Origin: Octopus vulgaris
Taxonomy: Eukaryota
NCBI GenBank assembly: GCA_951406725.2
Contig: OX597820.1
Location: 124,001 to 188,000, forward strand
DNA length: 64,000 nucleotides
Direction: 5' to 3'
Position numbers and translations under genes: made by a program. Each line of letters opens with the position of its first letter. Within the stretch, counting starts at the first letter, position 1. The notes below the pieces were generated by a model. That model had not been told where the DNA came from. It did not search any database and saw nothing but the letters and a program-made list of their open reading frames with translations. Positions 14,093 to 35,031 of the stretch are shown here, piece by piece.

Positions 14093-15649
14093 TATTATTA
14101 TTATTATTATTATTATTATTATTATTATTATTATTATTATTATTATTATTATTATTATTATCATTATTATTATTATTATTATCATTATTATTATTATAAG
14201 AACTGCCCACATCCTACGCAAAAACTATCAATTGAATAAATTACGTAAACAAAGCAACCCATAGACACAAGATTCACTTTATACAGCAATTACCCATGCA
14301 AATAAAAAAAACTTCCAGCAGTAACCCATTTAACCAACACATTACATAGACAATGCACAATACAAGCAGTAATGCAAAAAACACTGCACCACATCTTAAG
14401 AGAAAAAATAACTGGCGCAATACAATATCGGGAAGTTTCCACACTCCCAACAACAGAAAGGAACACACGATGTTGCACATACCCACCCCAGCAACACGGT
14501 GGTGTAGCAAGAAATGCAGTAGAAATCTGCCTCAAGCTACCAATAATAATCATTAAAGTAATAATCGTTATATCTGAATCCTTAACACTCACACTATCAA
14601 AAGAAAAAAACAGCCATTTTAGGAACGGCCCATAAGACACGATTAATTCAATACTACAACCTAAACAACTATCCAATGAAATAAACTACCACAAGCAAGC
14701 TGATTAACCTAGGTATTACACAATCAACACACAATACAAATACTAATTCGACAAAACACTGCATTACAACCCTACAATATGGAGATGTAGCCGTTGCTGC
14801 AGTAGAAATTTGCCTCAAGCTACCAAATGTTGAACAAGAACAATAAGAACAAGACTAGTAATCATTTCTCCTATAATCACAAGGCCTGACATTATGAGGT
14901 GCGGCTTAAGTCGATTAGATCGACCCCGGTACTCAACTCGTACTTAATTTATCGACCTCGAAAGGTTATAAAGCAAAGACAATTTCTGCGAATAAAACAT
15001 TTATTTTATATACATATATAGATAAGGCCTAATATTTTCTTAATATTTTCTATTTTATATCCAAATATAACAACCAATGGTCTCGTTTAAAATTTCCTTT
15101 TTCTTTCGTATCACAATCCTTTGAAGAAAAGCATCGCTATTTCTTCCATTTTCTTTTTCCTGTTTTATATTCTAATATATGCAAATGAGCGTCGTGTCGT
15201 CTCGTTTTCTTTCCACAATATTTGATCAGTTTGTGTCCATTTTGATGTTGTATATAATCCCTTTGCCACAGCAACTGAGCTGAGAAAGGTCTGACTTCTG
15301 TTAAAAGAACATGGTGCATCTACCTTATTCTACAATAGGCACAAGGCCTGATATTTTGGTGGGTAGGTCGGGGTCAGTTGATTACATCGACACTAATACT
15401 TGAATAGTGCCCATTTCATCGACTCTGCCAACTCATCACCTTAATAATAACAACAACCACAACAGCGACGAGGACGGGGAGGAGGACGAGGACGAGGACT
15501 ACGACGATGACGACGTTAATGATGATGATGATGATGATGATGAAACATAAGTGTTATATCCATGCAATAAAATTGTTTTACACAGAAAGTTATAATAATA
15601 ATAATAATAATAATAATAATAATAATAATAATAATAATAATAATAATAA

Positions 15650-16185
15650 TAAGGACCTACATACAATGGAAGCTATGCACACACTATAGAATAACACCAG
15701 AAATGAGATGGTATAAGTACACGCCAGAAAAGGTCACAAAAATGAGAAGGCAACAATACACAGATAGAGAAATTAAGGCCAATTAGGCCAGATATAGTTG
15801 TCAAAGATCATGAAGGGAAAAATGCATTCTGATTGATGTATCAATACCAACAGATGACAACGTTTCTCTAAAAGAAATGGAGAAACTTTCAAAATACAAA
15901 GACCTGGAAACAGAGGTATCTCGAAAGTGGAGTCTAAAAGCAGAACCAATTCCTCTGATAGTCGGCGAATTAGGTATGATAAAAAATATTCAGACAAATA
16001 CATAGCAAAAATGCCAGGACTAAATAATATATATGACATACAGAAAATAGCAGTCGTAGGCACCGCACACATCCTACGCAAAACACTTTCAATACAGTAA
16101 AAGTAAGAGCGTCACAGCAAACCAGAGCACATACCCAAGGCACACAGAGCTGTACTTGGTAGTACAGAAAAAGCACGTGATAACA
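15650..16185 (+). mobile_element. 5'-truncated, degenerate R4/Dong family A copy
   Basis: Homologous to 20245-20790 (RLE domain and 3' UTR); begins directly after (AAT)n. Confidence 0.8.
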
Positions 16186-16296
16186 ATAACACTATGATGA
16201 TGATAATAATAATGATGATGACGATGATGATGATGATGATGATGATGATGAAACATAAGTGTTATATTCATGCAATAAAATTGTTTTACTTTCCAG

Positions 16297-16413
16297 ACAT
16301 AGACGAGTGCACAGCAGACCCATGCGGGGCAGAGGGGACATGCACCAACACACCAGGATCCTACACATGTGTCTGTAATCCAGGGTTCGAGTTCAGCGGA
16401 ACAACATGCATTG
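16297..16413 (+). CDS. cbEGF exon 1 ([39 protein letters not shown])
   Basis: ttccAG acceptor, GTAAGT donor, 117 bp phase 1-1, DIDEC and CxNxxGSYxC calcium-binding EGF consensus. Confidence 0.9.
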
Positions 16414-16996
16414 GTAAGTAAAACAATAGACAACATCACGTGTATAGGTGTAACTGGTTTCAAGATATAATAACAAAAAATAATTATAGTAATAACATTA
16501 ATAATAATAATAATAATAATAATAATAATAATAATAATAATAATAATAATAATAAAAATAATAACCATAATAATAATAACAAAAATAATAATAATAATAA
16601 TAATAATAAAAATAATAATAATAATAATAATAATATTAATAATAATAATAATAATAATAATAATAATAATAATAATAATAATGATAATGATAATGATGAT
16701 AATAATAATAGTAATAATAATAATAATAATAATAATAATAGTAATAATAATAATAATAATAATAATAATAATAATGATAATAATAATAATAGTAATAAAA
16801 ATAATAATAATAATAATAATAATAATAATAATAATAACAATAATAATAATAATAATAATAATAATGATAATAATAATAATAATAATAATAATAATAATAA
16901 TAATAATAATAATAATAATAATAATAATAATAATAAGAAAGAAGAAGAAGAAGAAGAAGAAGAAGAAGAAGAAGAAGAAGAAGAAGAAGAATAACA

Positions 16997-33741: not shown

Positions 33742-34269
33742 GTAAGTAAACAGAATAGACATCACGTGCATAGGTGTAACTAGTTTCAAGTTATAATAAT
33801 AATAATGATAATAATAATAATAATAATAATAATAATAATAATAATAATAATAATAATAATAATAATAATAATAATAATAATAATAATAATAATAATAATA
33901 ATAATAATAATAATAATAATAATAATAATAATAATAATAATAATAATAATAATAATAATAATAATAATAATGATAATAATAATAGATAATAATAATAATA
34001 ATAATAATAATAATAATAATAATAATAATAATAATAATAATAATAATAATAATAATAATAATAATAATAATGATGATAATAATAAAAATAATAAAGATAA
34101 TAATGATGATGTTGATGTTAATGATGATGGGGATGATGATGATGATGATGATTGGTGATGATGATGATTGGTGATGATTGATGAAGATGATTGATGAGGA
34201 AGTTTGATGAGGATGATTGATGATGAAAGAAGTATTATATTCACGCAATAAAATTGTTTTACTCTCCAG

Positions 34270-34386
34270 ACATAGACGAGTGCACAGATGACCCATGCGG
34301 GGCACAGGGGACATGCACCAACATTGCAGGATCCTTCACATGTGCCTGCAGTCCAGGGTTCGAGTTCGACGTAGTAACTTGCGTTG
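34270..34386 (+). CDS. cbEGF exon (same peptide as 26981)
   Basis: AG acceptor, weaker GTAACT donor, 117 bp, open. Confidence 0.8.
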
Positions 34387-34788
34387 GTAACTAAAGCAGA
34401 ATAGACATCACGCGTATGGGTGTAACTGGTTTCGAGTTATAATAATAATAATAAATATAATAATAATAATAATAATAATAATAATAATAATAATAATAAT
34501 AATAATAATAATAATAATAATAATAGATAATGATAATAATGATAATAATGATGTCGATGATGTTCATGATGATGGTGATGATGATGATGATGATGATAAT
34601 TACTGAAGATTGATGATTGATGATGATGAATGATGATGATGATGATGATGATTGATGATGATGATTGATGAAGATGATTGATGACGATGATAATGATGAT
34701 TGATGATGATGATGATGATGATGATGATGATTGATGATGATGAAACATAAGTATTATATCCATGCAATAAAATTGTTTTACTTTTCAG

Positions 34789-34905
34789 ACATAGACGAGT
34801 GCACAGCAGACCCATGCGGGGCACAGGGGACATGCACCAACAAAATAGGATCCTACACATGTGTCTGTAATCCAGGGTTCGAGTTCAGCGGAACAACATG
34901 CACTG
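34789..34905 (+). CDS. cbEGF exon ([39 protein letters not shown])
   Basis: AG/GTAAGT, 117 bp, open. Confidence 0.9.
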
Positions 34906-35031
34906 GTAAGTAAAACAATAGAAAACATCACGCGTATAGGTGTAACTGGTTTCAAGATATAATAAAAATAATAATAATAATAATAATAATAATAATAATA
35001 ATAATAATAATAATAATAATAATAATAATAA

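What the first reader, a model, noticed from the sequence alone, without database searches (positions are those of the whole stretch)
15480..34990. Microsatellite-bracketed array of symmetric cbEGF exon cassettes: a possible domain-number and diversity generator
Seen: 15 sense copies of one unit, (GAT)n - ~50-bp conserved acceptor flank - 117-bp phase 1-1 exon - ~55-bp conserved donor flank - (AAT)n. Unique intron sequence is almost absent; introns are microsatellite plus retroelements. Established: symmetric phase-1 EGF exons can be gained, lost or skipped without frameshift. Inference: the shared microsatellites and flanks act as recombination substrates, so EGF number and order may vary between alleles, individuals or transcripts. 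That would be an accordion-like secreted recognition or matrix protein.
Basis: partly seen in the sequence, partly recalled or inferred. Interest (0 to 1): 0.8.

Follow-up and report, generated by a model that had tools for sequence, protein, structure and literature searches.

The report
Octopus gene with expanding EGF-exon array
An octopus gene for a secreted protein holds a recently expanded run of near-identical EGF exons, each wrapped in simple DNA repeats; it is transcribed and spliced, and its transcripts join the exons in a different order from this assembly, so the protein's length probably varies.

Summary
The array is real: 15 sense cassettes. 13 are intact 117-bp phase-1 calcium-binding EGF exons and 2 are frameshifted. 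About 99% of intron DNA is shared flank, AAT/GAT microsatellite or retroelement, mostly R4/Dong-like LINEs sitting in (AAT)n. The gene belongs to an Octopus-only family: signal peptide, acidic linker, basic Cys-rich domain, then 2 to 13 EGFs. Public contigs show exon C spliced to EGF, EGF to EGF, and EGF to a terminal exon, so it is expressed, with no membrane anchor. In both laid RNA-type runs of organism A the main EGF-EGF joint is absent from the assembled order (0 of 14 neighbours). That points to skipping, another allele or a paralog. Cassettes are recombinant. However, the newest duplication crossed over within 179 bp that is mostly flank and exon (19 bp microsatellite). Best reading: ordinary unequal crossing-over and conversion of symmetric exons, helped but not directed by microsatellites. 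Variation between individuals and the protein's function are unproven.

The parts
6814..6894 (+). Exon B, 81 nt, phase 2-2: first half of the basic Cys-rich N-terminal domain. One Cys conserved in relatives is replaced by Arg (7 Cys instead of 8).
   Evidence: 79% identical to O. vulgaris CAJ1099417.1 residues 94-122; limits; Cys count; alignment
11590..11666 (+). Exon C, 77 nt, phase 2-1: second half of the Cys-rich domain. Its acceptor reads CAC instead of CAG in this sequence.
   Evidence: 68% identical to CAJ1099417.1 residues 123-150. Its 3' end is joined directly to an EGF exon in contigs of runs X6 and X3 (table 7; located).
11976..12030 (+). Relic 3' half of an older-type EGF exon with an in-frame stop and a donor site. 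A SINE-like element (judged by eye) lies just upstream. It is skipped in the contigs.
   Evidence: 68% identical over 19 aa to the last EGF of paralog XP_029651374.2
12335..14197 (-). Inverted block inside the intron: (AAT)n, LINE 3' fragment, cassette 13271-13387, cassette 12649-12765, LINE 3' end, (AAT)n. These are silent copies.
15543..15590 (+). Exon-less remnant: the acceptor flank runs straight into an (AAT)n tract
16297..34905 (+). 15 sense cbEGF cassettes: 13 intact 117-bp exons and 2 frameshifted (21961-22028, 27734-27848). Two lineages, A and B, mostly alternate.
16992..20812 (+). Near full-length, broken RLE-type LINE (R4/Dong-like) in the microsatellite after the first cassette. 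A 3' fragment of the same family lies at 15653-16195.
   Evidence: RVT_1 E 3e-29; motifs and junctions; frame breaks; fragment 80% identical
22250..26327 (+). Second near full-length RLE-type LINE family (45% protein identity to the first), ending in (AAT)n. A related fragment lies at 35977-36937.
   Evidence: (R2 proteins in PDB, E 6e-12)
27942..28136 (+). Repeat-derived fragment (LINE-like by eye) used as an alternative exon after an EGF exon in a contig of organism B. It reads open for 64 codons to a stop.
   Evidence: loose end in X3 matches 27943 onward with 1 mismatch in 30; translation
28415..32494 (+). Newest higher-order duplication: two 2.04-kb units (A exon, B exon, 5'-truncated LINE at 29124-30104 and 31163-32139) differing by 4 substitutions and 6 repeat-length indels. 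Crossover interval 30441-30619.
37763..38003 (+). Terminal exon: three codons, stop, 3' UTR with AATAAA at 37998. No transmembrane segment.
   Evidence: joined to an EGF exon end in contigs of X5 and X6; located

Best explanation
This is an expressed Octopus gene for a secreted protein: a basic Cys-rich domain followed by a chain of calcium-binding EGF modules and a three-residue tail. Its signal-peptide exon lies outside the window (inferred from relatives). One phase-1 EGF exon, together with its short intron flanks and its GAT/AAT tracts, became the unit of repeated tandem duplication. Misaligned copies cross over or convert anywhere in the roughly 220-bp homologous core or in the tracts. 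This adds, deletes and mixes cassettes without frameshift and leaves debris (broken, inverted and exon-less copies). The (AAT)n tracts are also the target of R4/Dong-like LINEs, which lengthen the introns and are carried along in duplications. Broken or weak copies are skipped at splicing. SHOWN: anatomy, splicing, mosaicism, the crossover interval of the newest duplication, a transcript joint absent from the assembled order. INFERRED: that cassette number differs between alleles, and that the protein is a secreted surface or mucus-type binder whose EGF chain is a variable-length spacer for the cationic N-terminal domain.
For: Splice joints exon C to EGF (X6, X3), EGF to EGF (X5, X6, X3) and EGF to terminal exon (X5, X6), with zero depth on the donor flank in X5 and X6. 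Cassette 30506 has the upstream sequence of 32541 (285 nt identical) and the downstream sequence of 28461 (164 nt identical), as unequal crossing-over between those two predicts. Neighbouring informative sites are more compatible than shuffled ones: p=0.004, 34 sites, 16 cassettes, 21961 left out. Cys positions are untouched among 45 variable sites (P=0.0016). 3 of 13 structural versus 19 of 25 other residues vary (p=0.004; I chose the structural positions from the recalled consensus). The joint of an ATT-ending A exon to an A-type start has 0.65 and 0.64 of exon-body depth in X5 and X6 but matches 0 of 14 neighbouring pairs here. All 4 relatives whose source shows an organism name are Octopus (2 more give none), and EGF counts differ among them.
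Against: The acceptor of exon C is CAC, one conserved Cys is lost, 2 of 15 exons are frameshifted and 2 have weak donors. Including all 15 exons in order gives a stop after the second EGF, so this haplotype may be partly decayed. The run type 'RNA' is the tool's guess, contig depth is crude, and contigs collapse variants. A near-identical paralog could supply the unexpected joint: DNA run X1 holds cassette variants absent from the window. No protein identical to this gene was found in 3 searches plus the representatives search. The signal-peptide exon was not found in the window. Function has no direct evidence.
Confidence: 0.68

Rival explanations
1. This copy is a decaying allele or paralog. 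The array grew by neutral repeat instability, and the transcripts come from an intact allele or a near-identical locus.
For: CAC acceptor at exon C, lost Cys, duplicated frameshifted exons, inverted and exon-less debris, pN/pS near 1 (0.72-2.54 in the 33 of 36 pairs that have synonymous changes). The main transcript joint is not in the assembled order.
Against: Contig ends match this window's exon C (30 nt) and terminal exon (30 nt) as printed. All 15 intact exons (13 sense, 2 antisense) keep 6 Cys and have no stop despite 45 variable sites.
Confidence: 0.17
2. LINE-driven amplification. Each cassette carries a (TAA)n target, so nicking or reverse transcription of unspliced pre-mRNA by Dong-like elements copies cassettes into other AAT tracts. 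Silent copies then serve as conversion donors that diversify a recognition protein.
For: Three LINE families sit in the AAT tracts in one orientation. The inverted block starts in a truncated LINE, ends at a LINE 3' end and has (AAT)n on both sides. A spliced exon end in organism B is closer to the antisense copies (2 differences in 19 nt) than to any sense copy (3). Exons diverge twice as much as flanks (16.9% against 8.3%).
Against: The newest duplication fits a crossover in the core, not an insertion ending at the LINE. Both long LINEs have broken frames. The O. bimaculoides Dong element showed no sign of recent activity (PMC9115989, passages). Synonymous sites also exceed flank divergence in many pairs, so positive selection is not shown.
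Confidence: 0.08
3. Part of the array, at least the 2.04-kb duplicate, is an assembly artefact from joining two haplotypes.
For: The two units differ by only 4 substitutions in about 2,040 nt. A mis-join at the identical core would give the same chimeric cassette.
Against: The other copies differ by 1-30 nt per exon or by their tracts. Tandem EGF-EGF joints exist in contigs of 3 runs. An O. vulgaris relative has at least 5 homogenised EGFs (93% alike). An artefact could affect only the count.
Confidence: 0.07

Closest known systems
Octopus proteins CAJ1099417.1, CAI9741403.1 (O. vulgaris), XP_029651374.2 / XP_036369591.1, XP_014783437.1 (O. bimaculoides); automatic names 'wall 2-like', 'fibulin-1-like', 'LTBP2-like', 'ADGRE2'
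   Same: Same Cys-rich domain and cbEGF chain; short tail in most; isoforms X1/X2 of one member differ by one EGF.
   Different: Only CAJ1099417.1 and this gene have homogenised EGFs (93% alike in CAJ1099417.1 against 38-53% in the others). The automatic names reflect EGFs only: no TB or 7TM domain. None of five accessions appeared in the paper library.
Sea urchin SpTransformer (Sp185/333) locus, PMC5103432 (abstract and one discussion section read)
   Same: GAT repeats at the edges of duplicated units, mispairing and unequal crossing-over proposed, hybrid copies, repertoires differing between individuals.
   Different: There the units are whole genes with a known immune role. Here they are single exons inside one gene, no homology is implied, and no immune role is shown.
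R4/Dong non-LTR retrotransposons (PMC7998251 and PMC9115989, passages)
   Same: RT plus restriction-like endonuclease motifs; insertion in (TAA)n, the reported Dong target in molluscs; a Dong family is reported from O. bimaculoides.
   Different: Clade placement was not tested by a tree. The copies here are broken or truncated.
Intragenic exon-unit arrays under concerted evolution: human LPA kringle IV-2, spider flagelliform silk with homogenised introns; EGF exon skipping in ADGRE2/CD97 (all recalled, not read)
   Same: Frame-preserving exon-intron units gained and lost by unequal exchange; flanks more alike than exons; isoforms differing in EGF number.
   Different: Here the unit is only about 0.3-0.6 kb, has almost no unique intron sequence, and each unit carries a retrotransposon target.
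EMI-EGF proteins (EGFL7/8, MEGF6, PEAR1/Nimrod group; architecture recalled)
   Same: Secreted, with a Cys-rich domain ending in CC-x-GW before the EGFs; language-model neighbours carry EMI/PEAR1-like families (0.77-0.79).
   Different: Pfam EMI was hit by 0 of 7 relatives and by neither window exon. The scores are below the tool's 0.9 bar, so this is a lead only.

Membership tests
Calcium-binding EGF domain (PF07645) | Score above Pfam cut-off | tested here: met
   3 of 3 exons tested, 36-39 bits against cut-off 27
Calcium-binding EGF domain (PF07645) | Six Cys and D-x-D/N-E...N...Y/F consensus (recalled) | tested here: met
   15 of 15 intact exons; 2 frameshifted copies fail
Symmetric class 1-1 exon modules | Length a multiple of 3, phase 1 at both ends, used in splicing | tested here: met
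   13 of 15 sense exons; joints at these ends in contigs
R4/Dong LINEs | Reverse transcriptase followed by CCHC, RHD and PD..D endonuclease motifs (motifs recalled) | tested here: met
   best PDB matches are R2 proteins
R4/Dong LINEs | Insertion in (TAA)n | tested here: met
   Junctions of 6 elements or fragments lie in AAT-type tracts; one 5' junction follows a (GAA)n run and one fragment ends at the GAT tract
R4/Dong LINEs | N-terminal Myb/SANT-like domain | tested here: inconclusive
   The two long elements share a short N-terminal motif; no Pfam hit
R4/Dong LINEs | Placement in the clade by RT tree | not tested
   no reference sequences fetched
EMI-domain proteins | Pfam EMI (PF07546) match | tested here: not met
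   0 of 7 relatives at E up to 5; 0 of 2 window exons
EMI-domain proteins | EMI-like fold | tested here: inconclusive
   Model of CAJ1099417.1 shows a long beta-hairpin at pLDDT 55-68; listed fold matches were EGF-containing proteins; Atlas scores 0.78-0.79
Fibrillin/LTBP and ADGRE (automatic labels) | TB domains or GAIN/7TM | tested here: not met
   No TB, GAIN or 7TM family in 7 relatives; terminal exon encodes three residues
SpTransformer-type repeat-bracketed diversifying locus | Short tandem repeats at the edges of duplicated units | tested here: met
SpTransformer-type repeat-bracketed diversifying locus | Units are whole genes | tested here: not met
   units are single exons
SpTransformer-type repeat-bracketed diversifying locus | Repertoire differs between individuals | tested here: inconclusive
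   joint mismatch and extra variants could come from alleles, skipping or paralogs
SpTransformer-type repeat-bracketed diversifying locus | Induced by immune challenge, binds pathogens | not testable with these tools
   no tissue or treatment data available

The most novel reading that the evidence does not exclude
A self-targeting exon amplifier. Every EGF cassette carries the (TAA)n target of resident Dong-like LINEs. Their nicking and reverse transcription duplicate and move cassettes, and silent (antisense, frameshifted, weak-donor) copies act as a conversion reservoir. The result is individual-specific or cell-specific EGF chains on a secreted cationic defence or recognition protein of octopuses.
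Probability: 0.08. Interest if true: 0.82.

Novelty: new variant of a known kind. Interest (0 to 1): 0.5.

Why it matters
It is an unusually compact case of exon shuffling caught in the act: 0.3-0.6-kb units with about 1% unique intron, a mappable crossover, debris of failed events, and transcripts that do not match the assembled order. This makes the role of microsatellites and of site-specific LINEs in domain-number change directly testable with long reads. It also defines an Octopus-only secreted family, mislabelled as fibulin, LTBP or ADGRE, whose layout (acidic linker, strongly basic Cys-rich domain, EGF chain) suggests a processed surface or defence protein. One run holds the exon at very high contig depth, which hints at a gland-type product, but that depth is a poor measure.

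Tried and rejected
No whole genome is held, so dispersed copies and paralogs could not be counted. A signal-peptide or linker exon was sought with three profiles from the relatives; the best E was 0.23, so none was found. A link to the ankyrin exons downstream (a Notch-like gene) was rejected, because contigs end the gene at the 37763 exon. An in-frame Met-run ORF through the acceptor flank exists in 14 of 17 copies; I treat it as inherited chance, although acceptor-flank sequence is present in the RNA-type contigs. The cassette as a SINE-like partner of the LINEs: no likeness of the donor flank to the LINE 3' ends by eye. Positive selection is not claimed, since pS is about as high as pN. DNA depth in X1 was not used as copy number (tool warning; paralog variants present). 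No listed holder is on record as RNA, and the laid runs are 'RNA?' guesses. PDB sequence search of P0053 gave nothing. Paper searches: 0 hits; nothing relevant in the listings. led to an octopus skin-mucus proteome (PMC10138644): passages list EGF-Ca domains generally, and its one supplement held none of four family accessions. The library lacks most subscription papers and bioRxiv supplements, so absence from print is not established. Earlier-findings look-ups gave nothing for this locus and one unrelated item.

Full report
OBSERVATION. A BLAST of one cassette against the window gave 18 hits: 15 sense copies with exon, one exon-less remnant (15543-15590) and two antisense copies (12649-12765, 13271-13387). 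13 of 15 sense exons are 117 bp, begin and end in phase 1 and encode 6-Cys cbEGF (Pfam EGF_CA above cut-off in 3 of 3 tested). Two are frameshifted and share one 2-bp loss (21961, 27734). Two have a non-consensus +5 donor base (33149, 34270). Of 16,905 intron bases between the first and last sense exon, 60% are retroelement, 31% microsatellite-like, 8% shared flank and 1.1% other (my classification). A GAT tract precedes 17 of 17 exon copies and a long AAT run follows 15 of 17. The description is correct; the additions are the broken, inverted and empty copies.

THE GENE. The closest protein by identity is O. vulgaris CAJ1099417.1 (87% to the EGF query). It also matches two upstream exons that I had picked by eye: 6814-6894 (79%) and 11590-11666 (68%). 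A search of 1.84 billion representatives with its N-terminal 146 residues gave 6 hits including itself. All have a signal peptide and acidic linker; those long enough have a basic Cys-rich domain, and four have 2 to at least 5 cbEGFs. Isoforms X1 and X2 of one member differ by one 39-aa EGF. The signal-peptide exon is not in the window. The Cys-rich domain looks EMI-like but fails Pfam EMI (0 of 7). Atlas and fold evidence is only a lead. A relic older-type EGF exon with a stop lies at 11976-12030, so the array replaced earlier EGFs.

EXPRESSION. The cassette is held by 20 of 24 listed runs from 5 organism labels and 10 studies; none is on record as RNA. I laid 4 of them on one 213-bp cassette. 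In X5 and X6 (organism A, two studies) depth covers the exon and is zero on the donor flank. Loose ends join exon C to the EGF start (X6, X3) and the EGF end to an exon at 37763 (X5, X6), and EGF-to-EGF joints occur in X5, X6 and X3. Joints at splice sites across introns of 2.9 kb and more are what spliced RNA gives. The terminal exon adds three residues and a stop, so there is no membrane anchor. The listed EGF-EGF joint in X5 and X6 links an ATT-ending A exon to an A-type start, at 0.65 and 0.64 of exon-body depth. It matches 0 of 12 neighbouring intact pairs and 0 of 14 pairs among all sense copies. It therefore needs skipping of intact exons, a different allele, or a near-identical paralog; contigs cannot tell these apart, and they collapse minor variants. 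In organism B one EGF is spliced to a repeat-derived exon at 27942.

MECHANISM. Two cassette lineages mostly alternate. Of 561 pairs of informative sites 79 are incompatible, and neighbouring sites are more compatible than chance (p=0.004; 16 cassettes, 21961 left out): recombination or conversion. The newest event duplicated 2.04 kb with two exons and a truncated LINE, and the units differ by 4 substitutions. Cassette 30506 shares 285 nt upstream with 32541 and 164 nt downstream with 28461. The crossover therefore lies in 30441-30619, 179 bp of which 19 are GAT tract. Segment-wise nearest neighbours switch both within tracts and within flank or exon. Microsatellites extend homology and bracket the units, but they are not shown to be the main crossover site. 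Flanks differ by 8.3% and exons by 16.9% on average over 15 pairs of six type representatives. Cys and calcium-site residues are spared, but pN/pS is near 1, so constraint on the fold is shown and positive selection is not.

RETROELEMENTS. Three families have RT or downstream CCHC, RHD and PD..D motifs and sit in AAT-type tracts in one orientation. The best solved relatives are R2 proteins. PMC7998251 (passages) states that R4/Dong elements have RT plus REL endonuclease and target (TAA)n in molluscs. PMC9115989 (passages) reports a Dong family in O. bimaculoides without signs of recent activity. I call them Dong-like; no tree was built. Both long copies have broken frames. The inverted block begins in a truncated LINE and ends at a LINE 3' end between AAT tracts. 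That allows retro-transduction but fits DNA-level repair between tracts equally well.

AGAINST MY READING. Exon C's acceptor reads CAC, a conserved Cys is lost, and including all 15 exons stops the frame after two EGFs. This haplotype could be a null or decaying copy. Run X1 holds cassette variants absent from the window, so paralogs confound the allele argument. The 2.04-kb duplicate could be a haplotype mis-join. No genome was available.

COMPARISON AND VERDICT. The locus works like known exon-unit arrays under concerted evolution (LPA kringle IV-2, spider silk; recalled). It resembles the GAT-edged duplications of sea urchin SpTransformer genes (PMC5103432, abstract and section 17), but with single exons as units and a retrotransposon target in each. 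It is not fibrillin, LTBP or ADGRE despite database names. I found no description of the family or locus in ten searches of an open-access library (two of them were for background), which does not cover subscription papers. Verdict: a real, expressed, recently expanding exon array; a new variant of a known kind. Interest 0.5; best explanation 0.68; LINE-driven diversifier 0.08, worth 0.82 if true.

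Noticed in passing
window 59052-59206 and 63697-63851 (+): Two near-identical ankyrin-repeat exons (99.7% over 307 nt with flanks) within a larger local duplication (54181-54788 ~ 60399-60990, 56115-56420 ~ 63191-63516): a second gene with recent exon duplication.
   Followed up: partly
window 28418-28457, runs X5, X6, X3: The acceptor flank is covered in RNA-type contigs (depth about 11, 16 and 3,000-7,000) while the donor flank is not, or barely. 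This may be retention of one intron or read-through from intronic LINEs. Unexplained.
   Followed up: no
run X3 (organism B) on 28460-28577: Summed contig depth up to about 5e5 and 187 contigs with many exon variants, including an exact match to the F-type exon at 21397 and to the truncated donor flank of the antisense copy. It may be a very abundant transcript in a close relative.
   Followed up: partly
P0002, P0055, P0056, P0058: Charge layout: linker -6 to -11, Cys-rich region +12 to +19, with basic residues just before it in most members. This recalls pro-peptide-neutralised defence peptides (recalled). The EGFs are acidic only in P0002 among these.
   Followed up: partly
P0056 C-terminal tail vs window 24465-24500: The tail of the O. 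vulgaris 'fibulin-1-like' model resembles the RT of the intronic LINE (8 of 12 residues), hinting that this paralog's introns hold the same LINEs.
   Followed up: no
run X1, record 3: A cassette with 19 differences that is not in the window. Loose ends in that run show GAT-type repeats before and (AAT)n after, so other loci or alleles probably share the architecture.
   Followed up: no
window 40833-44552: LTR-type element: two 1.0-kb direct repeats at 97% around a 445-codon minus-strand ORF without a Pfam hit; a partial LTR copy at 50914-51275.
   Followed up: no
window 47741-50428 (-): 896-codon open frame, Penelope-like by eye, apparently intact; no meaningful Pfam hit.
   Followed up: no
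window 19790-19885: A (GAA)32 tract has expanded in frame inside the LINE's ORF, giving a poly-Glu stretch.
   Followed up: no
window 44660-45940: Broken mariner-like transposase, judged by eye from ORFs.
   Followed up: no
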